DNA of 64,000 nt from a virus (Duplodnaviria; Caudoviricetes), in the IMG/VR virus record IMGVR_UViG_3300012956_000019, positions 7,375 through 71,374 of that record, one strand, 5' to 3'. Positions 31,254-46,956 of the stretch are shown piece after piece. The notes beneath the pieces are model-generated. The model did not search any database. It was not told where the DNA came from and worked only from the letters and a program-made list of their open reading frames with translations. The translations under genes were made by a program, and so were the position numbers. The number at the start of each line of letters is the position of its first letter. Position 1 is the stretch's first letter.

Positions 31254-32191
31254 TTGAGTACATCCTTTTTTATTGTTTCAATTCTATTTTTCCATCTGTG
31301 ATTTTTCCACACTTCATTATATCCTTGTTTGGCAATTTCAATTCTTTCAGAATTATTTGACAAATAATAATCTATGTGTTCAATCAGTTCATCTGTTGTC
31401 TTCCACCATACCAGATGTTTTTTATTTTCAAAATCTCTTTCAATTCCATCATAATAATTTACCAAATAAAAACATCCTGATGCCATAACATTGAACAGCC
31501 TATCTGATGTGTAATGATAATTGGCTATATTGTTGATGCCAATAGCTATTTTTGAGCCCTTATAAATTGCTGGTGCTTTAGTCATCTTGACCATAACTGT
31601 TTTTCCACCCCAGCCATTTCCATACAAAGTAAATTTATCACCATATTTTTCAGCCAACAAATCTGATGTTTTCTTTTTCAATTCAGCCATAGGAAAATGT
31701 TTGTAAAAATTAGATAAAAACACAATATCATTTCCAAATTCATCATCTGGTTTGCATGACATTATAGTTTCTTCAAATCCTATTTGGATGTGATAAACAT
31801 TTTTTATTCCTTTTGACTTTAGAATCAAAACTGATTCAGCATCTGAAAATCCAGTGTGAATATTATCAGACAATTTAGCAACATCAAAATACCATTCATC
31901 AAGTGATATTGATACATCACCTGTCCAATTAAAAATAATAACACCAGGCACAATTTTTAATATTCTGCTAATTATTTCTGGTGTTATTATTCCACCCCTC
32001 TGAATTTGCATGAATATAAAATTAGGCTTGTATGATTTAACTGTATCCAATATGTATTGTTCCATTATTGTTTTACCTTTAATTGAAAAAATTTTTCTCC
32101 AATCTAAAGAACAATATTCACCCAATGATTTAATAGCTTTAATCATTGTTGTGTTATATTCAAAATTTAATCCAATGTGTAAAACTTTCAC
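31250..32191 (-). CDS. CgeB-like glycosyltransferase (Glyco_trans_1_2 type)
   Basis: IYKGSKIAIGIN...SDRLFNVMASGCFYL...EIAKQGYNEVWKNHRW. Confidence 0.8.
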   Translation of the reverse strand: MKVLHIGLNFEYNTTMIKAIKSLGEYCSLDWRKIFSIKGKTIMEQYILDTVKSYKPNFIFMQIQRGGIITPEIISRILKIVPGVIIFNWTGDVSISLDEWYFDVAKLSDNIHTGFSDAESVLILKSKGIKNVYHIQIGFEETIMSCKPDDEFGNDIVFLSNFYKHFPMAELKKKTSDLLAEKYGDKFTLYGNGWGGKTVMVKMTKAPAIYKGSKIAIGINNIANYHYTSDRLFNVMASGCFYLVNYYDGIERDFENKKHLVWWKTTDELIEHIDYYLSNNSERIEIAKQGYNEVWKNHRWKNRIETIKKDVLK

Positions 32192-33915
32192 TGGTTCAAT
32201 ACTTTCTGTTTTATTATCTCAATTCTATTTATCCATCTGTGATTTTTCCATATCTCATCATATCCTTGTTGAGCAATCTGTCTTCTTTCCTTAGCATGAT
32301 TCAAATAATAATCAACCTTTTTATCAAGTTCATCTAAATCATGCCACCAATCCAGATGATAACCTTGTTTGAATTGTTCTTCAATCCCTTCATAATAATG
32401 AGCCAAACAGAAACATCTTGAAGCCATTATATTGAATAATCTATCTGATGTGTATTTATAAGCATTTATATTGTTAATTGACAATGCTATTTTAGCACCT
32501 CTGTATATATGGGTGGAATATGATTTTGGAATGTGTTTAACACCATTCAATATTGTATCCCAACCAGTTCCATATACCTGAAATTTATCAACATATCTAA
32601 ATTTCATTTTTGCTATGACATTTTTTCTTAGTTCTGTTAATTCAAATCTGTCACCATAGTTAGTTCCTATAAAAACAATACTTGGCATATGAATTCTTTT
32701 TGATTCAGCTACATTGAAAATACCTTCTTCAAATGACATTGGCATATAAAATGAATTGCTATAACCTAAATTCAACAATGTATTAACATCTCTATAATTT
32801 GTGAATGATGTATATATGTTGTTGAATGAAGCCAAATCAATCATCCACTTTGGTGTTTCATCCCTTATATCACCACACCAATTTATTATTTTTATTTCTG
32901 GTGCAATTATATTGATGTGTTGAATTAGTTCCTTTGTTATTATATCTGGCCTCTGTATCTGCATAAATATCAAATCAATGTCATATTCATTTATTGTTTC
33001 CAATATTTTTCTATACAACATCTGTAAATTTCCATACTCAAGCTCATTTCTCCAGTCAATCAAGAAATAATTTCCAAGTGTGGATAGTGCTTTGACTAAT
33101 GTTTTTTGATATTCTGTGTTCAGTCCAATATGTAAAATAGATTTTTCACCAACAGCCTTGATTCTTTTATGTATCCTAAAATTGCCTAATAATGATGGTG
33201 TAACAAGTTGATATGGTGGTGGCACCCTTTGTACTATTCCTTTGTTTACATAATTTCTAACACCAGTATTGTGTAGATGCATTGATTTTATAGACAAAGA
33301 TGGATTTAACAGCTTGTATCCTGATGTGTGAAATTCATGAGCAATTTTATTATCACACCCAGCAACACCCATGTAAAAATTACCACCTTGAAATTTTGAA
33401 ATTTTACCTCTAAATGCCCAAACATCTTGGCTGTCTTTCCTATTGTGGAATTGTAATTCACCATTGGTTAAAACATTCCATCTTGTAAGACAATAAACAG
33501 TTTTGTTATCAAGTGTTGGTTCAATAAATCTTATTGTATCATCAAAATAAATATCTGTATTTGCTAAAATGTTTATGTCTGAATCACCACTTACACTATT
33601 TATGATTTCAAAAATATCCTTGTATTTCAATCTTTCATTAACAGATATAAATTTGAATTTATTAGAATATTTGTCAATGTTTAATGGTGAACTATGCTCA
33701 CACAATACATAAATATTTGTTATGTGGCTATTAAGAAAATTGTTGTTCAAACAATATTCATATTCCTTTAATCTTTCAGAATTATTTTCACCATACCAAC
33801 AAATAAAAAGATTTACAACACTATCAAATTCAAATGATATTTCATTTATCTTTTTTGATTCTTGATTTAGAATTGTTTTTGATTGATTTTTCAGATTTTG
33901 TAGTGTTTCTTGCAT
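32188..33915 (-). CDS. two-domain glycosyltransferase (GT-A-like + CgeB-like)
   Basis: N-terminal ANTDIYFD...CLTRWN...SQDVWAF...GCDNKIA domain; C-terminal half paralogous to 31250..32191. Confidence 0.75.
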   Translation of the reverse strand: MQETLQNLKNQSKTILNQESKKINEISFEFDSVVNLFICWYGENNSERLKEYEYCLNNNFLNSHITNIYVLCEHSSPLNIDKYSNKFKFISVNERLKYKDIFEIINSVSGDSDINILANTDIYFDDTIRFIEPTLDNKTVYCLTRWNVLTNGELQFHNRKDSQDVWAFRGKISKFQGGNFYMGVAGCDNKIAHEFHTSGYKLLNPSLSIKSMHLHNTGVRNYVNKGIVQRVPPPYQLVTPSLLGNFRIHKRIKAVGEKSILHIGLNTEYQKTLVKALSTLGNYFLIDWRNELEYGNLQMLYRKILETINEYDIDLIFMQIQRPDIITKELIQHINIIAPEIKIINWCGDIRDETPKWMIDLASFNNIYTSFTNYRDVNTLLNLGYSNSFYMPMSFEEGIFNVAESKRIHMPSIVFIGTNYGDRFELTELRKNVIAKMKFRYVDKFQVYGTGWDTILNGVKHIPKSYSTHIYRGAKIALSINNINAYKYTSDRLFNIMASRCFCLAHYYEGIEEQFKQGYHLDWWHDLDELDKKVDYYLNHAKERRQIAQQGYDEIWKNHRWINRIEIIKQKVLNQ

Positions 33916-34099
33916 TTCTGATAACCTTCTTTTCAGCTTGTGATTTTTTAACCATTGATATATTGTCTGTTGTTAATACAACTTTTTTAGCCATAACAAA
34001 ACTATCTTTATTTTCAACAAGTTCTGGCTCAGTGGCTTTTGATTCAGCCATCTTTACAGCTTGATTTAATATTAGCTTTGTGGTGTTAATTGTTCCCAT
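33842..34099 (-). CDS. small basic hypothetical protein
   Basis: 85 aa Lys-rich ORF with GGAATAG upstream; overlaps the next gene. Confidence 0.45.
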   Translation of the reverse strand: MGTINTTKLILNQAVKMAESKATEPELVENKDSFVMAKKVVLTTDNISMVKKSQAEKKVIRNARNTTKSEKSIKNNSKSRIKKDK

Positions 34100-34104
34100 G
34101 TGTT

Positions 34105-36243
34105 CTATTCCTTTTTTAATTGTCTAATGTCTTCAAATTCTTTATATGGATGGTCACTTAATACTCTTGGTAATACACCACCAAATGGTTCATCCCAACT
34201 TTTAACTTTTTGTGTTGGTTGTGTTGGCATTCCCTTCTGCCAACCAGAAACTGTATCTGTTACAAAAGTTTCTATGCCTCTATTTTTGTAATATTTTATT
34301 TTATTTTGAAGTGTATCAATTTTCCTAACATATCCAAAATGATATATGCAATCACCAACATATGGATGTTCAGTGACATATGGTTCACCAACTTTCTGTC
34401 CATCTTTATTCAAGTTGTTAAAGAAATTAAATGATTTCAGATGTCTGAATCCTGTATTCCATCTCCATACTCTTGGGTGTTGTGTACTCCATTTGCCACC
34501 AGCATCCTTTGCAACTGTTTTGAAATTCAACCAAAAATGATTAAATGGCATCCTGACAATGCTTATCTGTTTATTATTTTCCATCATATTTATTACATCA
34601 ACCAATGTCTCTGGTTTCCAAATTTCATCATGGTCAACTTTAACATAATAATCACCAGTGACTCTTTTGGCTATCTCATTTTGCATTTCAATTTTATCAT
34701 TCCAAAATTTACCTTTTTTTGATTGTACAAATTCTATCTTGTTCAATACATCAAATTGTTTTAGCTTTTCAACAATTTTTATTGTTTCATCTGTGCTATT
34801 TGGTTTGATAGCATATCCCTTTACAGCACCTTCAACAATTATAATTTGATTAACAACACTGTAAATAGATTTAACAGCATATTCAAGATAGTCAGCACCA
34901 TTGTAAACTATTATTCCAGCTGATATCTTAGGAATTTTGAAAACACTTAATAATGAATTTGTAGCATTGCCAATTAAACTAAATGACCCACCATTGCTGA
35001 CCCAATCAATTTGCTCCATAGATTGGTTGCCCTCACATATTTGTTTAATGGCTTGTATAAATTTACTCACATTGCCAGATTCAACATATTGGATGGAATT
35101 TTTGTACACTTCTTTTAACACAGGCAATTCATAAGCTATAACTGGAACACCACAATACAATGCTTCCATTGGTGGCATACCAAATCCCTCAAATGTTGTT
35201 GGAAACACCAACACACTTGCTTTGGCTATTATTCTAAATTTTTCTTCATCTGATATCTTACCATGTGTTGTAATACTAACATTATCTAATTTGTTTATGT
35301 AATCAAGTTCATCTTTCCAAATTTTACCTATTATGTCAAAATGATATTTATCATTTGAAAATTTCTTTAATACAGGAATGAGTGTTTTGAATGGTGTCAT
35401 TCTGGAAATGTAAACAACATTGTATTTATTATTGGTTGCTAAATCATGATTGCTTAATACCTTATCAGCCACAATCTGATTTATACATGGATAAATTACA
35501 TACACATCCTTGTCTGGATTTAATTTCCAAACTCTCTCATCATCTTTCATCCATTCAATCAAGTGTTTTTTACTTTCTTGGCTGATTGTTATTATCTTAT
35601 CTGCTTGAAATAAACACCCTTTATAACTTGCCCAAAATTCATTGCTGGCATCTACACCATCCCTCATTGTTTGAATCCAATTTGGTGTTTCAAATATAAT
35701 CAAATACAATGGCAACATGTATCTCTTGGCATATTCAGTGGCATGTAATCCACCTGTCACTGGACATCCTACAATCAAATCAAATTTGTTATCTGAATTA
35801 TCACCCAAGTATGTTGGTGTAGTGATGATTTCAAAATTATCATTGTAATAATCTTTGAAGTCATTATAAAATGGTGGTTTGTCATTTGTTACAACTGTTA
35901 CTTTGGTATATTGAGAAAGTAACACAGCTTGGTGAAAAATAGAATATCTGCCACCAGTGTAATGTGGCATGTGTTCTATGAAAAATGCTATGTGCTTAAA
36001 TGATTTGAGTGTATTATATGTTGGTTGTGTTATAGTCTTGTTTTTATTCATCAACAATGGTGATAGTGAAATAAGGATTGCTGATGTAATTTCATGTGAT
36101 GTGGATTTATCAATAAAAGATTTACTGATTGTGATATTGACTTCAGTTTCTGTATGAGCTATCTTGAAAGATGGTGTGTCTGATGATATATTCTTTGAAT
36201 CAACTTTATGTTGTTGTTGGTTCAAAATAAGTTTGCCTGTCAT
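34105..36243 (-). CDS. GT4-GT2 fusion glycosyltransferase
   Basis: GT4 motif FEGFGMPPMEALYCGVPVI; GT2 ISAGIIVYNG...YVKVDHDE. Confidence 0.88.
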   Translation of the reverse strand: MTGKLILNQQQHKVDSKNISSDTPSFKIAHTETEVNITISKSFIDKSTSHEITSAILISLSPLLMNKNKTITQPTYNTLKSFKHIAFFIEHMPHYTGGRYSIFHQAVLLSQYTKVTVVTNDKPPFYNDFKDYYNDNFEIITTPTYLGDNSDNKFDLIVGCPVTGGLHATEYAKRYMLPLYLIIFETPNWIQTMRDGVDASNEFWASYKGCLFQADKIITISQESKKHLIEWMKDDERVWKLNPDKDVYVIYPCINQIVADKVLSNHDLATNNKYNVVYISRMTPFKTLIPVLKKFSNDKYHFDIIGKIWKDELDYINKLDNVSITTHGKISDEEKFRIIAKASVLVFPTTFEGFGMPPMEALYCGVPVIAYELPVLKEVYKNSIQYVESGNVSKFIQAIKQICEGNQSMEQIDWVSNGGSFSLIGNATNSLLSVFKIPKISAGIIVYNGADYLEYAVKSIYSVVNQIIIVEGAVKGYAIKPNSTDETIKIVEKLKQFDVLNKIEFVQSKKGKFWNDKIEMQNEIAKRVTGDYYVKVDHDEIWKPETLVDVINMMENNKQISIVRMPFNHFWLNFKTVAKDAGGKWSTQHPRVWRWNTGFRHLKSFNFFNNLNKDGQKVGEPYVTEHPYVGDCIYHFGYVRKIDTLQNKIKYYKNRGIETFVTDTVSGWQKGMPTQPTQKVKSWDEPFGGVLPRVLSDHPYKEFEDIRQLKKE

Positions 36244-37150: not shown

Positions 37151-38146
37151 TTAGCTTGCTGTGGATGGTGTATCAAGATTGTACAGCTGGCACAAAGCAC
37201 CTTTGTACATTACAGTGAAATCCATTCTTTCTGTAATGACATAAATCTTTGTGTCTTCCTGAATGTAGTCATCCTGTTTGATTCTGACCCTTCTTCTGTC
37301 ACCAATAACAGGATTGCTCTTGTGGGTTAAAACACCATAACCATCAGTACAATAAGCACTGTTGATTACAGCAACTTTACCATATAGCTTTCCAAACTCA
37401 CCAGTGAATATGGTAGCATTTGGGCCATATTTTTCAAGTGTAACAAGTTTGCTATCATCAAGCAACTGATTTGCTGACCATGGATTAAGAATGAGAACTA
37501 AATTGCTCATCACTCTGCCATACTTTCCTAAGTTAAACATTGCCTGTCTAACTAAGGCAGTGGCCATATCTGCACCACTTGCATTGACTCTGTTTGCTGC
37601 TCTTGTGTCCAAAGCTATGGAACCAGCAATGTCACCTGAAAGTGTTAGCAAGCCATTGAAAGCAAATCTGTGGTCTTTGGTGTACCATGTTACATCAGTG
37701 GCATTTGCTTCAACTGCTGTTGAAGGTGAGTGAGCTGTATCACCCTGAATCATTGCTTCCTCTTCTGCTGCAGCAAGTGTTGCAGCAAAATGCTCTCTGA
37801 TGATTGACTGCATGTCATTCTGAGCATCTTCAAGAACTTCTTCACTGGCATCCATTCTTGACATGAATTTTTTAGCTTCCAATCTGATTGTACCAGTGTT
37901 AAGATTGGTTGAATTTGCAGCACCACCTTCTGTTGACTGATAGTACACTTTTGTTCCACCTAAGATTTTTGGATAATCTCTTGTTTTTGTGGCCATAGGA
38001 ACAACTGTGAATGCCTGTCTCAAGAAGTTTTGGTCATACACATGGTTGATGAATTCTGTTGCCAATGGTGTTGGTAAAAAATCACCACCTGCTCCAGCTG
38101 ATGTGGATAATGCTTTTTTAATAGCATCATTTAATGATTTACTCAT
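37151..38146 (-). CDS. major capsid protein (HK97 fold)
   Basis: GGDFLPTPLATEFI...SEEVLED...EEEAMIQGD...GKLYGKVAVINS...ERMDF. Confidence 0.92.
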   Translation of the reverse strand: MSKSLNDAIKKALSTSAGAGGDFLPTPLATEFINHVYDQNFLRQAFTVVPMATKTRDYPKILGGTKVYYQSTEGGAANSTNLNTGTIRLEAKKFMSRMDASEEVLEDAQNDMQSIIREHFAATLAAAEEEAMIQGDTAHSPSTAVEANATDVTWYTKDHRFAFNGLLTLSGDIAGSIALDTRAANRVNASGADMATALVRQAMFNLGKYGRVMSNLVLILNPWSANQLLDDSKLVTLEKYGPNATIFTGEFGKLYGKVAVINSAYCTDGYGVLTHKSNPVIGDRRRVRIKQDDYIQEDTKIYVITERMDFTVMYKGALCQLYNLDTPSTAS

Positions 38147-38855: not shown

Positions 38856-39761
38856 TCAACCTTCAGCTGGGATGCCTAATTGTTCTTCAATTGTAGCAGT
38901 CAGTTCAGCTATCTCTGAAGCCAATTGTTCAATCTTTACAGCAAATTCATTTGCTACACCCAAAATCTTTTCTTTCTTTTGTGTTGGTGTTAAATCTGAA
39001 CTTTCAACTATTGAATACAATGTTTCCCTGAAGGCATAAAATATATCCCACATTTCATCTTTCACCTTGTTGGTTTGAACCATCTCATCTAATGTTTTGG
39101 TGAACTTCTTAACAAGGTTATCATCCACTGAATCAACATCTGTGGTGGTAGTTGAGTCAGTTTCTTTTTTTAGTTGTTCTTGAATTTCTGGCTGTGTGAA
39201 TAAATCACTGAGTGATTTTCTGATTGGTACTGTCCATGTGTCAACACCAGCAGGCATGGCTGTTAAGCTGACTTCATATATTTCACCATCTTCAATTTCT
39301 GTTATTGTTTTCTTTAACTGTTCATCAAAATATTTACTGGCTTTGGTTATTCTGCCACCAATGCTGTATCCTATTTTTGTGCCATGTTTAATTTTGTTTA
39401 GAATAGATTTAACAAGTGGATTGTCATCTTCATTTTCCAATGCTGTATCAACTACAACTGCATCACCATCATCAATTACTTCATCAATATAACCAACTGT
39501 TTTTTCAATAGAATGTTCATGTTCAGCAAATACATTTAAGCCTTGAACTGTTGATTTTATTTTATCAACAAATGCTTTGCTCATCCTCTCATCTTCTTTA
39601 TCTATTTGAGTGTTGGTTGCTGTGCCTCTCAAATATTTAACTTTGACACCATTGCTAATTTCTTTTTCAAATATCTCTATGTGTCCATTTTTTTGATTCA
39701 ATGGAATCAATGCTTTGAAAAATCCCTTATCTTTGGTGTTGTTGGCAATTGATTGTTTCAT
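38856..39761 (-). CDS. HK97-family prohead protease
   Basis: LRGTAT...FAEHEH...GYSIGG...YEVSLTAMPA catalytic motifs. Confidence 0.88.
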   Translation of the reverse strand: MKQSIANNTKDKGFFKALIPLNQKNGHIEIFEKEISNGVKVKYLRGTATNTQIDKEDERMSKAFVDKIKSTVQGLNVFAEHEHSIEKTVGYIDEVIDDGDAVVVDTALENEDDNPLVKSILNKIKHGTKIGYSIGGRITKASKYFDEQLKKTITEIEDGEIYEVSLTAMPAGVDTWTVPIRKSLSDLFTQPEIQEQLKKETDSTTTTDVDSVDDNLVKKFTKTLDEMVQTNKVKDEMWDIFYAFRETLYSIVESSDLTPTQKKEKILGVANEFAVKIEQLASEIAELTATIEEQLGIPAEG

Positions 39762-39855: not shown

Positions 39856-40068
39856 TTAGGACTGTTGTGTTTTATCTATTATTACAACATCAGGCATTTC
39901 ATATCCAATGCTGTTTAAGAATTTCACCAAATCCTTTGTTGTCTTGTCATCATCTTCCATCATCTCCATACAATTGGTATGAAACCAAATGTCTGAATTA
40001 TTATTGCTTGGGTCAGTTCCTTCAGCAACTTTATTTTTCTTTTTTTTCTTTTCAAATTCTTGAGACAT
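39856..40068 (-). CDS. small protein, candidate MuF-toxin immunity protein
   Basis: 70 aa; start overlaps the MuF stop codon. Confidence 0.5.
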   Translation of the reverse strand: MSQEFEKKKKKNKVAEGTDPSNNNSDIWFHTNCMEMMEDDDKTTKDLVKFLNSIGYEMPDVVIIDKTQQS

Positions 40069-41939
40069 TATTTCATACCTATATAATTTTTCAATATTTT
40101 AATACTATTTCCATTTTTATCTAATAACAATTCACCTCTCCACCATCCTCTATTTAACATGAAATCTTTACCACTTATTTTCACACCATTAATTGTTTTG
40201 TTATATGTAGCAAAATCCCAGCTGTGTTTGAAATTAGAAGTGTCAACAATAACACCAGCTTTTTGTTCTATGTATCCACTAAATGCTCTTGCATAATTTC
40301 TTAATGTTATGTCTGATTCAAAATCAAATCCATATTTTGCCCAAGCATATAGCCCTACATCACCATTGGCATGAACTGTTATTTTATAAACATTATATTT
40401 CTCATAAAATTGAATTTGATTTCTAAATAATTCTTTACCAATTTGCCTATTTTGAAAAGCACCTTCAAGAAAAAATGAATCATGATCAACAATAAGTTTC
40501 TCTGATATTTGTTTTCCTTCAGTAACAATTGACCTTCTTTGAAAATTTCTATGAAATGAACCTATTTCATCACCAGATTTATATGATTTTTCGTGTAATA
40601 TTTGTTTGCTTTCACCATATCTTGTTTCTGTTGTGTACCACTGCAAATTATTGTAATCTTTTTGAGCTTTTAAGTGACCAGACACTCTGAAATTATCTCT
40701 GCCAAGTGGCATTATTTCAACATCTGTCTTAAATTCTGAACCTGTATTGAATGCTTTTTGAAAATCTTCATAAAATATTTTTTGTTCTTGTTTAATACCT
40801 AAAATTGATTTGATGTCATTCTCAAATTCCAATGCTTCTTTTTCAGCTGATCCATTCTCCATAAAATAATCTTTCATGGATGTCTGATTGGCCAATGCTA
40901 TGTTTTCTGCCGCAAGCAATTTGGCTTCATCAAAAGTTTCTGTTGCTAATAATGGCACCCATTGGCATCTACAATTGGCGTGTTGTGGTATTACACCACT
41001 TGCTTGTTCCAATGTATAAATCATCCCTTCAAGCCCAGCGCAAATTGGACACAATCTCTCATCTGGTGAAGTGCTAAATTGTACACGATCTACAACACCA
41101 GATTGCTTAAATCCATCTAATCTGCCTGCATTATAAGCACCATTTATTTCTGTTCTTGCTACAGTATTTGCCCAATGTTTTGGTGACATCTGATATGAAT
41201 AACCTTGTCTGATCACAGTTCCATCTGGTGATATTCTTGGTGGAACTTTAACATCAATTGGTTTATTCCATAATGCCAAAATATTTTTTCTAACTTCAGG
41301 AATGCTATCACCATTTTTAATAGCTTCCAACAAAGTGTATTTTATATTGCTTGAAATCTCTTTACTAACTTGTTCAGAAAGTTTCAATATGTAGTTGTTA
41401 AAAAATTTCTCAACATTCTTATCTCTGAGTGCAAAATCTATTCCAACATCAAAAATACCAAATACAGTGTTTCCACCCATGTTGTAAGAATCAAATACAC
41501 TGTGTGAAATTGCTTCATTGAATGGGTCAGGATTGATGAATGATATACTGTTGATGGTCTTGTCCACACCTGATTTATTTAGCCAATCTCTCATCTCCAC
41601 TGAAAATGTAAATTCCTTAAATCTGGTGATGCCAACAGTTGTATATTTCACCCTTGGTTCAAGTGGAATGTTTTCAAGTTGAACAATACTATCTTTTATG
41701 AACTTTTGGGTGTAAATTTTCTCCAATTGATTTAGCTTTGACAGAACTTCTTTTTGAGCATTGTCAAAAGCTATAATCAATTGCAATTCAAGTTTCTCTT
41801 CAGCCAATATAATCCAATCATAATACCTCTTTTGTATGTCTGATTTTTTCTTGGCCAATCTTTCAACAATAGAAAGTGTTTCAAGAAATTTTCCAACATC
41901 CTGAACCTTCATTGGTGGTGTTAAACTTAATTTATTCAT
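40068..41939 (-). CDS. MuF/SPP1 gp7-like head morphogenesis protein with GNAT-like C-terminal extension
   Basis: TVARTEINGAYN...DERLCPIC...PQHANCRC MuF core; C-terminal FQNRQIGKELF...HANGDVGLYAWAKYGF. Confidence 0.85.
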   Translation of the reverse strand: MNKLSLTPPMKVQDVGKFLETLSIVERLAKKKSDIQKRYYDWIILAEEKLELQLIIAFDNAQKEVLSKLNQLEKIYTQKFIKDSIVQLENIPLEPRVKYTTVGITRFKEFTFSVEMRDWLNKSGVDKTINSISFINPDPFNEAISHSVFDSYNMGGNTVFGIFDVGIDFALRDKNVEKFFNNYILKLSEQVSKEISSNIKYTLLEAIKNGDSIPEVRKNILALWNKPIDVKVPPRISPDGTVIRQGYSYQMSPKHWANTVARTEINGAYNAGRLDGFKQSGVVDRVQFSTSPDERLCPICAGLEGMIYTLEQASGVIPQHANCRCQWVPLLATETFDEAKLLAAENIALANQTSMKDYFMENGSAEKEALEFENDIKSILGIKQEQKIFYEDFQKAFNTGSEFKTDVEIMPLGRDNFRVSGHLKAQKDYNNLQWYTTETRYGESKQILHEKSYKSGDEIGSFHRNFQRRSIVTEGKQISEKLIVDHDSFFLEGAFQNRQIGKELFRNQIQFYEKYNVYKITVHANGDVGLYAWAKYGFDFESDITLRNYARAFSGYIEQKAGVIVDTSNFKHSWDFATYNKTINGVKISGKDFMLNRGWWRGELLLDKNGNSIKILKNYIGMK

Positions 41940-43497
41940 TTATTTTTGTAACCTTATCAGCTGGAAATGTATATGTCTTGCTCAAAAATTGTTCCCTGTC
42001 ATTAATTATCTGCTCAACAATAGCCAATCTTTGACTTGGCTCCATTGTTTCCCAGCCAACAGGTGTCTGATTGTCTTCTGACAAATACTTAGTCAACAAC
42101 GATCTGCTAATCAAATTAACATTTGGAACATTGCCTGCTTGTGGTGTTTTATCAACAGCATTTGGATCACCAGGCACTGATTGTCCATTTGGTCCAATTC
42201 CAAATGGTGCAACATTATTCTGTAAATAAGGAACATCACCCCAAGGAACAGGCATCAAGCCCAATGCTGTTGTTCTTATCTCATTTATTGTAATAACACC
42301 TTTATCCAAATACATTTGATGCCATTCAGCTTGATCCTTTTTATCAATAATGTCCAAATCAAAATCTAAATACACATCAGTCATTCCTAATGCTGTTTTA
42401 TCAAATATAATATGCTTGTTGTATTTATCTGTAAATGATACCATGTGTGGTTTTACAGCATCAATCTTAAATTGTTTGACTTGTTCAGTGACTGAACCTT
42501 TTGCTGCACTTCCAATTTCAACACCTAAAACAACTGGTTGCATTTTATAAACAGCCATGATCTTTTGTAACAACATTTTACTGTATTCTTGAAATTGCAT
42601 TTCTTCATTGCTCATTCCAACTTTCTGAAATGATATTTTACCATTTTCAGTTCCTATGACAATTGGTCTATGTGGCTGACCTCTCAATTCAGTGTCCCAC
42701 CATGTTCTAAATCTTGTCAATGCTGTCTGACCTTGTCCTGTTCCAAGCCCTTCCATCAATACAGCAAATCTTGGTGTAGCATTATTGTAAAAGAAATCAA
42801 GATTAAATTGGCTGGAATATAATTCAGCTGTTACAGTTTGGATAAGTGATTCAAGTGGTGATAATCCATACAGCCTATCTGATTGTGGATTAAGTTTATA
42901 ATACAATAGTTGATTTTTTTTCCATGATGTTATCTTTTTCATGTGTCTATCAACTTGAATATAGGCTTCATCTTCTTTCAACAATCCTTTTTCATCAGCA
43001 TTTATCTTAACTGTATTGCCAGGTACAGCATAAATTTCAACTAATTTCTTGCCTTTATTCAAGTCAGCACCTCTGACTATTTCCATTGACCCAGCATCAT
43101 ATACCAAAATGTCTCTGGCAATTTTTTTCCTTATCTCTGTCAAAGTTTCATAATTTGAATTTGGTTTTTCAAGAAGTTCTGAAACCAAATCCATGTTCTT
43201 TTTAGTTTCATCAGAAAGTTTTGCCTCACTCTGATCTGATCTTAATCTCAGTGGTTTAACTAATGGTGCCACCTCTGTTATTCTTTCAATAGTTTTATCA
43301 ACTATTGCTCTCACCCATGTATTACTGATATACATCATTTTCATTTGTGGAAATGACAAGCCCTTGACAGCAAGTTTCTCTGCATATGCTACATTCCCTG
43401 ATCCACCAACTCTGCCCAATGACAATTCATCACTATCAATGGAACTTTCTTTTGTGTTGGCTTTGTAGAAAAAAGATTTTGAAAAATTTATCATCAC
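41932..43497 (-). CDS. portal protein (HK97/lambda-type)
   Basis: YGLSPLESL...FFYNNATPRFAV...GVITINEIR. Confidence 0.9.
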   Translation of the reverse strand: MMINFSKSFFYKANTKESSIDSDELSLGRVGGSGNVAYAEKLAVKGLSFPQMKMMYISNTWVRAIVDKTIERITEVAPLVKPLRLRSDQSEAKLSDETKKNMDLVSELLEKPNSNYETLTEIRKKIARDILVYDAGSMEIVRGADLNKGKKLVEIYAVPGNTVKINADEKGLLKEDEAYIQVDRHMKKITSWKKNQLLYYKLNPQSDRLYGLSPLESLIQTVTAELYSSQFNLDFFYNNATPRFAVLMEGLGTGQGQTALTRFRTWWDTELRGQPHRPIVIGTENGKISFQKVGMSNEEMQFQEYSKMLLQKIMAVYKMQPVVLGVEIGSAAKGSVTEQVKQFKIDAVKPHMVSFTDKYNKHIIFDKTALGMTDVYLDFDLDIIDKKDQAEWHQMYLDKGVITINEIRTTALGLMPVPWGDVPYLQNNVAPFGIGPNGQSVPGDPNAVDKTPQAGNVPNVNLISRSLLTKYLSEDNQTPVGWETMEPSQRLAIVEQIINDREQFLSKTYTFPADKVTKINE

Positions 43498-44860: not shown

Positions 44861-45214
44861 TTAATGAATGATATTGTTACTTTTAAGATTTTTCATCTCA
44901 TAATCCTCATACACAACTCCATTATTGTGTATTCTATAATTAAAATTTGCAATGCTTAAATTGAATTTAACACAAAATTGAGTGATTGTCATCTTGTGTT
45001 TTAATATGTATTCAATACAAGCTATTGTTACACCTGTTATTTCCATTTCCCTTTTTAACCATTCCCAATCATATTTATCAATTCTTGAAAATTTTCCATC
45101 TGATTTTCTTTTTTGACAATTCCATCTACACAATGATATATCCCTTAATAAAATATTTTGAAGGTGAATAAATTTTGATAAAATATCCACCAAATCCACA
45201 TATACATATCTCAT
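44861..45214 (-). CDS. hypothetical protein, possible C-terminal HTH
   Basis: 117 aa; ATGA overlap with TerL stop; TITQFCVKFNLSIANFNYRI. Confidence 0.5.
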   Translation of the reverse strand: MRYVYVDLVDILSKFIHLQNILLRDISLCRWNCQKRKSDGKFSRIDKYDWEWLKREMEITGVTIACIEYILKHKMTITQFCVKFNLSIANFNYRIHNNGVVYEDYEMKNLKSNNIIH

Positions 45215-46956
45215 CCAAAAAATATTCCTACATCAAGTGAAAATCTATCATAGGCATTTTTAGTTGAACCCACAATTGCATCAATAACATCCTTGCTACC
45301 AACTTCAATTCCCTCAAGCAAAAATCTGTCCCAACTTTCTACTGGGTGATCCACTTTACCATTATCACCAATGGTTAGTTCCTTTGATTCCCTGTGAGCT
45401 ATTGGATGTGGATAACATCTAACAAGCTGTTGATACATCAATTCTTTCCAAGTGTCATATGATTCATTGCTTTTGTCCACAGAAAATGCTTCAGTTGGTA
45501 TGCCCTCTTGATTCATTATCTGTATGCTGTCTCTGCTTTGCCATCCATCATAGGTTACAATGCCAATATTAAATCCAAACTGATTTTTTAATCTCAATAT
45601 GAACTTTCTTACATCTGAAAATTGCACCTCTGTACCTGATTTAGCAACTAATTGAATGGCCAAATCAATTACAACACCTTTTCTTGTTATGTTAAGTTCA
45701 GGATCATCAGCATTGAATTCAACAATAATACCTTCTTTGTACAAATCCTTTTTTAGCCTATCATCTAACTTTGGAAACATAGAATCAATATGAGTCAGAG
45801 CAAATCCAGCACAGTCATTCTTTTTGTCTTTCTTACCAGTGCCTAAATCCACATGTACAGCATACATTCTGCCTTCAGTTCCTTTGAAAAAAGATTTGAA
45901 CTGAAGTGATTGAAGAAAAGCACTGTCAATACTTAACAAATCACCCACTATTGGATTTTCATAAGCTGGTGAAAACATGTATGACAGCATATATTTCTTA
46001 CTAACATATCCACCAACTTCAGCATCACCTTCACACTCATAAGTCATCTTGGCTTTTTCATAATTCCTTTTATATTGTTGTGCCAACTTTTCTCTTGTGA
46101 CCATTAAGTTCACTTCATGTGTCGCTTTCTTACTGCTAAACACTCTTTCATTATCCAATTCCTTTTTGTAAAGAACATCCATTGGATCATTGTGATAATA
46201 CTTATATGAAATAACACATGTTTTACCAACACCTGAAAATCTTGATGTCACTGTATCCCTAACAGCATCCAATAATTCAAATGCCTTTTCAAAAGGAAAT
46301 GAACCAAACTCATCTATTGTTACAAAGAACAAGTTCAATCCTTCACCTGTATTAGTTTCACTGTTTAGAGAATGTGCTGTAATGGAAAATGGAAACTTGA
46401 CTTCAGATGTCTGTAAGTCATATCCATCTCTCATATCTACACCCTTTTCAGCAAACCAGTTTTTACCAGTTCTTGGATTGATACATTTCTTTAACAATGA
46501 TTTGAACTTTTTGAAATACACATTTATTGCTTGTCTGGCATTAATGGACATATTAGCCACATCAATAGCATCATCATCACCAATTGAACATCCATATTCT
46601 GTTCTTAGGAACTCATGTGGATTTTTAAGACACATTAATTTGTATATCAAATACACCTGCATCTTGCTGATTGTTCGATCTTTACCACTTCCCTTGCCCC
46701 AAAAAGCATGTCCTTCATCATAATCTGTGTTAAATTCTGTGGCTAATTCACCAAGCATAGCCCTGCTGAATTCATCTTGAACTGGAAACAACCCTTCACC
46801 CAGCCAATCTAAACAAAAAGTTTGTATGTCCACTGGTTTCTCTGACCAAACATCACTATCTATTTGGCTAACAGATGATGGTGTAACAACAGCTGAATAT
46901 AGTTCATCCATGAACACTGTTTTAACTGGTTGAGCTTTTGTAAGTGTCCTTGCCAT
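45211..46956 (-). CDS. terL: terminase large subunit
   Basis: Walker A GKGSGKD, Walker B VTIDE, nuclease HVDLG...TYDGWQS...SKDVIDA. Confidence 0.92.
   Translation of the reverse strand: MARTLTKAQPVKTVFMDELYSAVVTPSSVSQIDSDVWSEKPVDIQTFCLDWLGEGLFPVQDEFSRAMLGELATEFNTDYDEGHAFWGKGSGKDRTISKMQVYLIYKLMCLKNPHEFLRTEYGCSIGDDDAIDVANMSINARQAINVYFKKFKSLLKKCINPRTGKNWFAEKGVDMRDGYDLQTSEVKFPFSITAHSLNSETNTGEGLNLFFVTIDEFGSFPFEKAFELLDAVRDTVTSRFSGVGKTCVISYKYYHNDPMDVLYKKELDNERVFSSKKATHEVNLMVTREKLAQQYKRNYEKAKMTYECEGDAEVGGYVSKKYMLSYMFSPAYENPIVGDLLSIDSAFLQSLQFKSFFKGTEGRMYAVHVDLGTGKKDKKNDCAGFALTHIDSMFPKLDDRLKKDLYKEGIIVEFNADDPELNITRKGVVIDLAIQLVAKSGTEVQFSDVRKFILRLKNQFGFNIGIVTYDGWQSRDSIQIMNQEGIPTEAFSVDKSNESYDTWKELMYQQLVRCYPHPIAHRESKELTIGDNGKVDHPVESWDRFLLEGIEVGSKDVIDAIVGSTKNAYDRFSLDVGIFFG

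What the first reader, a model, noticed from the sequence alone, without database searches (positions are those of the whole stretch)
39856..41939. MuF head protein with GNAT-like C-terminal domain plus coupled small gene: candidate acetyltransferase effector-immunity pair
After the MuF core there are about 270 more residues. They end in a segment resembling GNAT motif A and the following strands (FFLEGAFQNRQIGKELFRNQIQFYEKYNVYKITVHANGDVGLYAWAKYGF). MuF proteins with C-terminal toxin domains and a downstream immunity gene are an established polymorphic toxin class; MuF/gp7-type proteins are packaged in heads. A 70-aa ORF starts on the MuF stop codon. Inference: a virion-delivered acetyltransferase acting on a host target.
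Basis: partly seen in the sequence, partly recalled or inferred. Interest (0 to 1): 0.7.

Follow-up and report, generated by a model that had tools for sequence, protein, structure and literature searches.

The report
Phage head protein carrying acetyltransferase cargo
A phage head-assembly protein (MuF) ends in an acetyltransferase-like domain, and the tiny gene after it encodes a partner predicted to bind that domain's cofactor groove. This looks like a virion-carried enzyme with its own safety catch, a design known in outline, and no activity has been measured.

Summary
Window 40068-41939 (-) encodes a 623-aa SPP1-gp7/MuF minor head protein lying between portal and prohead protease. Residues 349-623 form one confident fold (pLDDT 95) whose structural matches are all GNAT acetyltransferases (Z up to 8.9). 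A 70-aa ORF (39856-40068) starts inside the MuF stop codon (TAATG).

The extension belongs to a large, unannotated GNAT-like family: 925 cluster representatives. In the contigs sampled, the domain ends within 15 residues of the protein's C-terminus in 67 of 74 proteins. These include MuF, portal and giant multi-domain proteins. It is usually followed by a small partner gene.

- **Real gene:** the 70-aa gene is conserved (66-77% identity in four homologues; dN/dS 0.27).
- **Predicted binding:** its product is modelled over the acetyl-CoA groove (score 0.78, best control 0.14).
- **Cassette swap:** a related phage keeps MuF (57% identity) and protease (61%) but carries an unrelated HExxH extension and an unrelated small gene.

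Caveats:
- This copy has Q where the cofactor loop normally has its central glycine.
- No integrase was found.
- Activity, toxicity and packaging are untested.

The scan had already noted the same MuF-GNAT-plus-partner theme on other DNA (24 notes, at least 18 genomes). Verdict: a new variant of MuF/polyvalent-protein effectors, of moderate interest.

The parts
40068..41939 (-). MuF-GNAT gene, 623 aa (P0001), stop TAA at 40068-40070
   Evidence: ORF and translation. Six full-length relatives are 35-67% identical over both halves.
40896..41939 (-). MuF/gp7 part, residues 1-348. This part is shared with the L006 MuF protein, which carries a different extension.
   Evidence: BLASTP 57% identity over residues 1-348, then no similarity.
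40962..41348 (-). Pfam Phage_Mu_F domain, residues 198-326
   Evidence: E 4.2e-15; TIGR01641 phageSPP1_gp7 54.7 bits.
40071..40895 (-). C-terminal extension, residues 349-623: one compact GNAT-like fold
   Evidence: AF2 on residues 340-623: pLDDT 95.3, pTM 0.89. Foldseek and VIA-align top hits are all GNATs.
40071..40580 (-). Family-conserved core, residues 454-623, including H486, Q496, Y512, N525, G529, Y531, W533, H572-W574-D575, K591 and W600
   Evidence: 925 cluster representatives at E<=1e-3; column counts.
40437..40454 (-). Cofactor-loop equivalent of GNAT motif A, residues 496-501 (Q-N-R-Q-I-G). The family consensus is Q-G-x-G-I-G.
   Evidence: Alignment A1. The central G is Q in this copy and A in its closest relatives.
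39856..40068 (-). Partner gene, 70 aa (P0002). Its ATG overlaps the MuF stop by one base.
   Evidence: Sequence; homologues; dN/dS 0.27; predicted binding 0.78 against best control 0.14.
41932..43497 (-). Portal gene directly upstream, overlapping the MuF start by 8 nt
   Evidence: PHROG portal families, E 1.8e-49.
38856..39761 (-). Prohead protease/scaffold-like gene directly downstream of the pair
   Evidence: PHROG head maturation protease, E 3.5e-6; 61% identical to the L006 counterpart.

Best explanation
The pair is a head-internal effector module. The MuF part anchors the protein in the capsid near the portal, as established for SPP1 gp7 and Mu gpF (cited in PMC5512222 and PMC5576092). 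The C-terminal GNAT-fold domain is cargo that enters the next host cell with the DNA and acylates a host target there. The target is unknown. By fold neighbours it is a protein amino group or a charged tRNA.

The translationally coupled 70-aa protein is largely unstructured alone. It folds onto the domain and covers strand beta4, the cofactor loop and helix alpha4, which is where GNATs hold acetyl-CoA. This would keep the enzyme silent in the producing cell until the two separate at packaging, maturation or ejection.

Shown: fold, family, position, gene coupling, co-exchange of the two parts, and predicted binding. Inferred: packaging and ejection, catalysis, inhibition and the target.
For: (1) MuF identity and head-module position.
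(2) GNAT fold: pLDDT 95.3. All top 50 structural matches are GNATs, Z 8.9-7.1, including protein N-terminal acetyltransferases and the tRNA-acetylating toxins AtaT, TacT and KacT. The family profile hits PDB GNATs. 21 of 60 relatives hit Pfam Acetyltransf_1. Large relatives reach E 1e-16 to 1e-20 and sit next to Phage_Mu_F, an ADP-ribosyltransferase and a peptidase.
(3) Terminal-cargo architecture: in 67 of 74 non-redundant proteins the domain ends within 15 residues of the C-terminus.
(4) Partner linkage: 54 of 74 are followed at once by a member of one of three small partner families. Partner family tracks the GNAT clade (10 changes against 24.7 in shuffles).
(5) The partner here is a real, constrained gene.
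(6) Predicted complex: score 0.78, best of 3 controls 0.14. That mark was reached by 58 of 80 solved complexes and 2 of 110 mismatched pairs. Runs agree in at least 43% of contacts and partner pLDDT is at least 54. The interface covers residues 486-491, 500-502, 522, 529-535, 574-583, 591 and 611-619, and partner residues 25-66, which is the partner's conserved block.
(7) Cassette swap: L006 keeps MuF residues 1-348 (57% identity) and the protease (61%), but has an unrelated HExxH extension (phrog 'zinc-finger protease', E 4e-6) and an unrelated 75-aa gene.
(8) In six loci, four of them from named Bacteroidota genomes, another partner family lies directly downstream on the opposite strand. It could therefore be expressed apart from the late operon.
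Against: This copy lacks two glycines conserved in the family: G499 is Q in the cofactor loop and G516 is N. Its own Pfam GNAT score is below threshold. It may therefore bind acetyl-CoA poorly or not at all.

The window's partner family shows no detectable similarity to the commoner partner families (hhalign probability below 2%), so evidence from those families transfers only by analogy.

In some relatives the partner is fused to the next cargo protein or to the GNAT protein itself. That fits a tether as well as an inhibitor.

Solved GNAT toxin-antitoxin complexes exist, so the complex score may partly reflect likeness to them. The alignments were my own, with only three rows for the partner.

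No virion proteomics, activity or toxicity data exist.
Confidence: 0.55

Rival explanations
1. Docking module rather than enzyme. The GNAT-like domain is a pseudo-enzyme platform anchored through MuF or portal, and the small partner sequence is a tag that binds it. The tag may load further cargo into the head or act as an assembly chaperone. In this phage the tag stands alone.
For: The commonest partner family is fused to the N-terminus of the next protein, which carries a Zeta_toxin kinase domain or a Peptidase_S78 prohead protease. In one case it is fused to a portal-GNAT protein itself. This copy has a degenerate cofactor loop. Several invariant family residues (G529, W533, A577, K591) lie in the predicted partner interface. 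Hardies et al. note that T7 internal virion protein A matches acetyltransferases (PMC4819975).
Against: 48 of 60 relatives keep the central glycine of the acetyl-CoA loop and 50 of 60 the leading Q. Many pass Pfam GNAT thresholds. That conservation is hard to explain without cofactor binding. Here the partner carries no cargo. In L006 the whole module is replaced by a protease-like domain, which is an effector type and not a dock.
Confidence: 0.2
2. Assembly-time enzyme. The domain acetylates a phage component during head assembly, for example scaffold, portal or the Lys-rich 70-aa protein itself. The small protein would then be its substrate or specificity factor, not an inhibitor.
For: The partner's N-terminus is Lys-rich. 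The nearest folds include protein N-terminal and ribosomal-protein acetyltransferases such as NatD, RimL, RimI and PA3270. Both genes sit in the late head operon.
Against: The Lys-rich N-terminus is the least conserved part of the partner and lies outside the predicted interface, which uses residues 25-66. Other partner families have no such tract. An essential assembly step would not be swapped for a protease-like module in a close relative.
Confidence: 0.12
3. Classical MuF polymorphic toxin for competition between bacteria. The toxin is released with or on particles from lysogens and kills non-immune kin. The 70-aa protein would be the lysogen's immunity protein.
For: All the architectural hallmarks of Jamet et al. 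are present: an N-terminal MuF domain, a variable C-terminal domain and a small downstream ORF. Family members occur in bacterial genome contigs of up to 709 kb, presumably as prophages, with the partner sometimes on the opposite strand.
Against: No integrase or resolvase was found in this 71-kb record, although it is only 81% complete. The partner is translationally coupled to a late gene, so it would not be made in a silent prophage.
Confidence: 0.1

Closest known systems
MuF polymorphic toxins of temperate phages (Jamet et al. 2017, PMC5576092; Apk2-type domains, PMC12226406)
   Same: An N-terminal MuF domain next to the portal. A C-terminal extension that is exchanged between related MuF proteins. 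A small ORF directly downstream that changes with the extension.
   Different: The main text of that paper does not mention a GNAT or acetyltransferase domain (0 occurrences). It lists nucleases, metallopeptidases, ADP-ribosyltransferases, RelA-like domains and 'unknown' extensions. No sign of a temperate lifestyle was found here. Toxicity is untested.
GNAT domains of phage polyvalent proteins (Iyer, Burroughs, Anand, de Souza, Aravind 2017, PMC5512222)
   Same: GNAT domains carried by virion-associated multi-domain proteins, often beside an ADP-ribosyltransferase or MuF, and predicted to be injected and to modify proteins. Large relatives of this domain show exactly such neighbours.
   Different: I could not test whether this family is one of the two named there (accession BAR32501.1; Mycobacterium phage Alice gp113). 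The GNAT section of that paper describes no dedicated small partner gene.
Type II GNAT toxin-antitoxin pairs (TacT-TacA, AtaT-AtaR, KacT-KacA, GmvT-GmvA)
   Same: A GNAT fold (Z 7.1-7.6, rmsd 3.1-3.9 A over 119-134 residues) paired with a small protein that binds the toxin.
   Different: Here the partner is downstream and has no DNA-binding domain detected. The enzyme is fused to a capsid protein, and sequence identity is only 8-12%. It works like these pairs at most and is not a member.
T4 Alt, a packaged ADP-ribosyltransferase injected with the DNA (as summarised in PMC5512222)
   Same: A protein-modifying enzyme carried inside the head and delivered at infection.
   Different: The chemistry and fold differ. 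Alt has no known coupled inhibitor gene (from my own knowledge).

Membership tests
MuF polymorphic toxin family (Jamet 2017) | N-terminal MuF domain (PF04233) | tested here: met
   E 4.2e-15, 56.9 bits against 29.6; TIGR01641 54.7 bits against 39.65.
MuF polymorphic toxin family (Jamet 2017) | C-terminal extension that varies between otherwise related MuF proteins | tested here: met
   L006: 57% identity over residues 1-348, then an unrelated HExxH extension. Five other relatives keep the GNAT domain.
MuF polymorphic toxin family (Jamet 2017) | Small ORF (<150 aa) directly downstream as candidate immunity gene | tested here: met
   A 70-aa ORF with TAATG overlap, conserved, and swapped together with the extension.
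MuF polymorphic toxin family (Jamet 2017) | Encoded by a temperate phage or prophage | tested here: inconclusive
   No PF00589 or PF00239 match in the 71,374-base record, which is estimated 81% complete.
MuF polymorphic toxin family (Jamet 2017) | C-terminal domain is toxic and is neutralised by the downstream protein | not testable with these tools
   Only predicted binding is available.
GNAT superfamily | GNAT alpha/beta fold | tested here: met
   pLDDT 95.3. All 50 best VIA-align entries are GNATs, Z 8.9 (rmsd 3.4 A, 133 aligned) down to 7.1. Foldseek probability 1.0.
GNAT superfamily | Motif A acetyl-CoA loop Q/R-x-x-G-x-G/A | tested here: inconclusive
   The family consensus is Q-G-x-G-I-G. 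This copy reads Q-N-R-Q-I-G, with the central G replaced, where 48 of 60 relatives have G.
GNAT superfamily | Passes a curated GNAT sequence model | tested here: not met
   This protein scores 13.5 bits against a cut-off of 23.6. Relatives do pass, and the family profile hits PDB GNATs at E 1.3e-4.
GNAT superfamily | Acyl-CoA-dependent transferase activity | not testable with these tools
Type II GNAT-RHH toxin-antitoxin systems | Antitoxin with a ribbon-helix-helix DNA-binding domain, usually encoded upstream | tested here: not met
   The partner is downstream. It gives only sub-threshold, unrelated Pfam and PHROG matches and no NCBIfam match, none of them RHH. The Atlas model of the partner alone has pLDDT 0.39.
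Polyvalent-protein GNATs (Iyer 2017) | GNAT domain inside virion-associated multi-domain proteins with ART or MuF neighbours | tested here: met
   Relatives P0014 (Phage_Mu_F), P0018 (ADPrib_exo_Tox) and P0013 (Peptidase_Mx), with several GNAT copies each.
Polyvalent-protein GNATs (Iyer 2017) | Same clade as the exemplars named in the paper | not tested
   The exemplar sequences were not at hand.

The most novel reading that the evidence does not exclude
The window is one member of a very large, unannotated clade of GNAT-fold enzymes that phages carry at the tips of head-internal proteins (MuF, portal, giant polyvalent proteins). Each is paired with a small protein that plugs the cofactor groove. 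On this reading the clade is a general 'injected acyltransferase with safety catch' arsenal. It would modify host translation or defence components in the first moments of infection and be released from its plug by packaging, prohead proteolysis or ejection.
Probability: 0.35. Interest if true: 0.7.

Novelty: new variant of a known kind. Interest (0 to 1): 0.42.

Why it matters
Phage proteins injected with the DNA act before any phage gene is expressed, so they are prime candidates for disabling host defences or taking over the host. T4 Alt is the textbook example.

If this GNAT family is active, it adds acylation to the known repertoire of head-delivered chemistries: ADP-ribosylation, (p)ppApp synthesis, nucleases and proteases. 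It would also supply a ready-made enzyme-inhibitor pair for study. The family has 925 cluster representatives and carries no family annotation in Pfam or NCBIfam, and no function in PHROGs beyond 'minor head protein'.

For this particular window the added value is modest. The scan has met the same theme repeatedly, and this copy has a weakened cofactor loop.

Tried and rejected
- **Homology among partner families.** A visual resemblance between the window's partner and the commoner partner families (a conserved His followed by a hydrophobic helix) was not supported. hhalign probabilities were 0.2-1.7%, and jackhmmer did not connect them.
- **T7 gp13.** This is T7's first internal virion protein gene, which I took to be the 'IVP-A' said to match acetyltransferases in PMC4819975. 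It showed no similarity to the family profile (hhalign probability 0.17%). That is a single-sequence test and therefore weak.
- **Partner alone.** Pfam, PHROG and NCBIfam gave only weak, unrelated matches (NIF phosphatase E 0.002). The Atlas likewise found only NIF look-alikes at 0.80-0.82, below the lead level.
- **Other searches.** phmmer of the whole protein against PDB sequences found only a rubredoxin-like Cys knuckle in the MuF core (E 0.89). The phage GenBank collection holds no close relative. The best match to the extension is Bacillus phage CP-51 gp27, a hypothetical protein.

Full report
**What is there.** On the minus strand the window carries a head module. It runs: a 581-aa ORF read as large terminase (45211-46956, no PHROG match), three small genes, portal (41932-43497), the gene in question (40068-41939), a 70-aa ORF (39856-40068), a prohead protease/scaffold-like gene (38856-39761), an acidic 192-aa gene, and the major capsid protein (37151-38146). 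The 623-aa product has a Phage_Mu_F domain at residues 198-326 (E 4.2e-15) and passes NCBIfam's SPP1 gp7 model. Its stop codon overlaps the ATG of the 70-aa ORF by one base (TAATG). The record is an IMG/VR viral contig of 71,374 bases, linear, estimated 81% complete. It has no match to the integrase or resolvase families.

**The extension is a GNAT fold.** On its own the protein gives only a sub-threshold GNAT hit (E 0.075). An exhaustive search with residues 420-623 found 925 cluster representatives at E<=1e-3.
- Of 60 aligned members, 21 hit Pfam Acetyltransf_1 (best E 1.6e-7).
- Larger members reach E 1e-16 to 1e-20.
- A profile of the family finds solved GNATs (best E 1.3e-4).
- AlphaFold2 with this alignment gives one compact domain for residues 340-623 (pLDDT 95.3, pTM 0.89).
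- Foldseek's top matches are almost all GNATs at probability 0.96-1.0.
- All 50 best VIA-align entries are GNATs, from Z 8.9 (rmsd 3.4 A, 133 residues; PA3270-like) down to 7.1. They include NatD, RimL, RimI, GCN5 and the tRNA-acetylating toxins AtaT, TacT and KacT.

These Z values are middling, so the fold call rests on the unanimity of the list together with the sequence-profile evidence.

In the viral structure library the best matches are uncharacterised phage proteins, from Bacillus phages JL and CP-51 (E down to about 1e-12).

**Family signature and how this copy deviates.** The consensus runs V-x-H-x-x-F-x-L, then Q-G-x-G-I-G, then Y-x-K-x-G-V, then A-N-x-x-V-G-x-Y-A-W-A-x-x-G-F-D-F, then H-x-W-D-x-A, G-K-x-F-L-L and W-x-G.
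- This copy keeps H486, Q496, G501, Y512, N525, G529, Y531, W533, H572, W574, D575, K591 and W600.
- Its loop reads Q-N-R-Q-I-G. The central glycine of the acetyl-CoA loop, present in 48 of 60 relatives, is Q here and A in its four nearest relatives.
- G516, present in 55 of 60, is N here.

Whether this copy still binds the cofactor is therefore open.

**Architecture of the family.** I fetched about 100 contigs that hold the domain and scanned them with my own HMMs.
- Among 74 non-redundant proteins, the domain ends within 15 residues of the C-terminus in 67.
- Carriers include MuF proteins, a portal fusion (L084), proteins of about 500 aa with a roughly 200-residue insertion after the G-F-D-F motif, and giant multi-domain proteins with up to eight copies. 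The giant proteins also carry MuF, ADP-ribosyltransferase or peptidase domains.

This is the 'polyvalent protein' setting in which Iyer et al. described phage GNATs (PMC5512222).

**The small gene is a real, cognate partner.**
- It has four database homologues at 66-77% identity and a distant syntenic one in L001. dN/dS against the L005 copy is 0.27.
- The related contig L006 has the same gene order. Its MuF is 57% identical over residues 1-348 and its protease 61% identical. Between them, both the extension and the small ORF are unrelated to the window's. The L006 extension has an HExxH motif and matches phrog 'zinc-finger protease' (E 4e-6); its small ORF is 75 aa. The extension and the small gene are thus exchanged as one cassette. 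Metallopeptidases are a known class of MuF toxin domain.
- A complex prediction of residues 434-623 with the 70-aa protein scored 0.78, against 0.14 for the best of three controls. That mark was reached by 58 of 80 solved complexes and 2 of 110 mismatched pairs. Runs agree in at least 43% of contacts and partner pLDDT is at least 54.
- The partner's conserved block (residues 25-66) touches strand beta4 (486-491), the cofactor loop (500-502), the end of beta5 (522), helix alpha4 (529-535), the H-S-W-D-F-A segment (574-583), K591 and the last helix.
- By the established GNAT layout, acetyl-CoA lies between beta4 and beta5 against the loop and alpha4. I therefore infer that the partner covers the cofactor groove. 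I did not place the cofactor myself.
- Alone, the partner is poorly folded in the Atlas model (pLDDT 0.39).
- Caveats: solved GNAT toxin-antitoxin complexes exist, so part of the score may come from likeness to them. The alignments were my own.

**Partners across the family.**
- 54 of the 74 proteins are followed at once by one of three small families. 48 belong to a family with the motif F-F-Y...L-H-x-P-I-L...G-L-T, which I label s38. Four belong to a second family, which I label s32. Two belong to the window's family.
- The three families show no detectable mutual similarity, but they track GNAT clades on a tree (10 label changes against 24.7 in shuffles). Relatedness alone can produce such clustering.
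- The commonest partner is sometimes fused to the N-terminus of the next protein, which carries a Zeta_toxin kinase or a prohead protease. In L084 it is fused to the portal-GNAT protein itself. This fits a tether as well as an inhibitor, and it is the main support for the docking rival.
- In six loci, four of them from genomes named Flavobacterium, Bacteroides, Lutibacter and Dyadobacter, the second partner family lies directly downstream but on the opposite strand. It could then be expressed apart from the late operon, as an immunity gene would need.

**Reading.** The best explanation is a head-carried acyltransferase-like effector with a cognate groove-binding inhibitor (0.55). Rivals are a catalytically dead docking module (0.2), an assembly-time acetyltransferase with the small protein as its substrate (0.12), and a classical lysogen toxin-immunity pair (0.1).

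It works like MuF polymorphic toxins and like GNAT toxin-antitoxin pairs. It meets the architectural criteria of the MuF family but not the temperate-phage association. It is not a member of the GNAT toxin-antitoxin family, because the partner is downstream and has no DNA-binding domain.

**Prior notes of this scan.** A word search returned 24 notes in at least 18 genomes on MuF-GNAT proteins with small partners. Follow-ups reached much the same reading. I treated them as leads only and re-derived the points above from this window and fresh loci.

**Novelty and score.** GNATs in phage polyvalent proteins and MuF toxins with downstream immunity genes are both published. The pairing of this unannotated GNAT family with dedicated plug-like partners is not in the papers I could search, but it is recurrent in this scan. 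I rate it a new variant of a known kind, interest 0.42.

Noticed in passing
L006:297-2309 (JACDJC010018682.1): A related MuF protein (590 aa) carries an HExxH extension (phrog_7153 'zinc-finger protease', E 4e-6; weak Peptidase_M90) in place of the GNAT domain. It is followed by its own 75-aa ORF (phrog_33375, unknown function). This is a second candidate effector-partner cassette at the same locus.
   Followed up: partly
L035:4543-6399, L077:4597-6474, L092:4609-5775, L071:2704-3888, L052:4624-7218: The gene after the GNAT protein often starts with the small partner sequence and continues into a Zeta_toxin-type kinase domain (E 1e-24 to 1e-29) or a Peptidase_S78 prohead protease. Gene borders are therefore offset from the functional modules.
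   Followed up: partly
L084:1632-4214: A single 860-aa protein joins a Phage_portal domain (E 9e-64), the GNAT-like domain and the small partner sequence. This is a self-contained fusion that would need cleavage to separate enzyme and partner.
   Followed up: no
L036:3942-4130, L102:3442-3630, L099:4062-4247, L108:3418-3597, L023:4587-4736, L098:3427-3609: In six loci the second partner family lies within about 10-40 nt downstream of the GNAT gene but on the opposite strand. Four are bacterial genome contigs (Flavobacterium cerinum, Bacteroides sp. 51, Lutibacter maritimus, Dyadobacter sp.) and two are viral contigs. In L016 and L032 the same family is co-oriented with the GNAT gene.
   Followed up: partly
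L002:1-3444 and L010:3-4799: High-GC phage proteins of at least 1147 and 1598 aa hold two or three tandem copies of the domain. In L002 the protein sits upstream of a 947-aa protein whose C-terminus looks like a prohead protease.
   Followed up: no
many loci, e.g. L038:2992-4560: About half of the family members have an insertion of roughly 200 residues between the G-F-D-F motif and the H-x-W-D/G-K...W part of the domain. The content of the insertion was not examined.
   Followed up: no
window 32188-36243: Two large glycosyltransferase-like genes (712 and 575 aa; PHROG glycosyltransferase, E 7e-19 and 1e-6) lie just downstream of the capsid genes.
   Followed up: no
window 45211-46956: The 581-aa ORF in the large-terminase position gave no PHROG match at E<=1e-4, which is unusual for a terminase.
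   Followed up: no
L003:4218-5531 (Bacillus phage CP-51 gp27): A cultured Herelleviridae phage encodes a 437-aa 'hypothetical protein' ending in this domain, a few genes upstream of its portal and overlapped by a 1,086-aa ORF. It is a possible experimental handle for virion proteomics.
   Followed up: no
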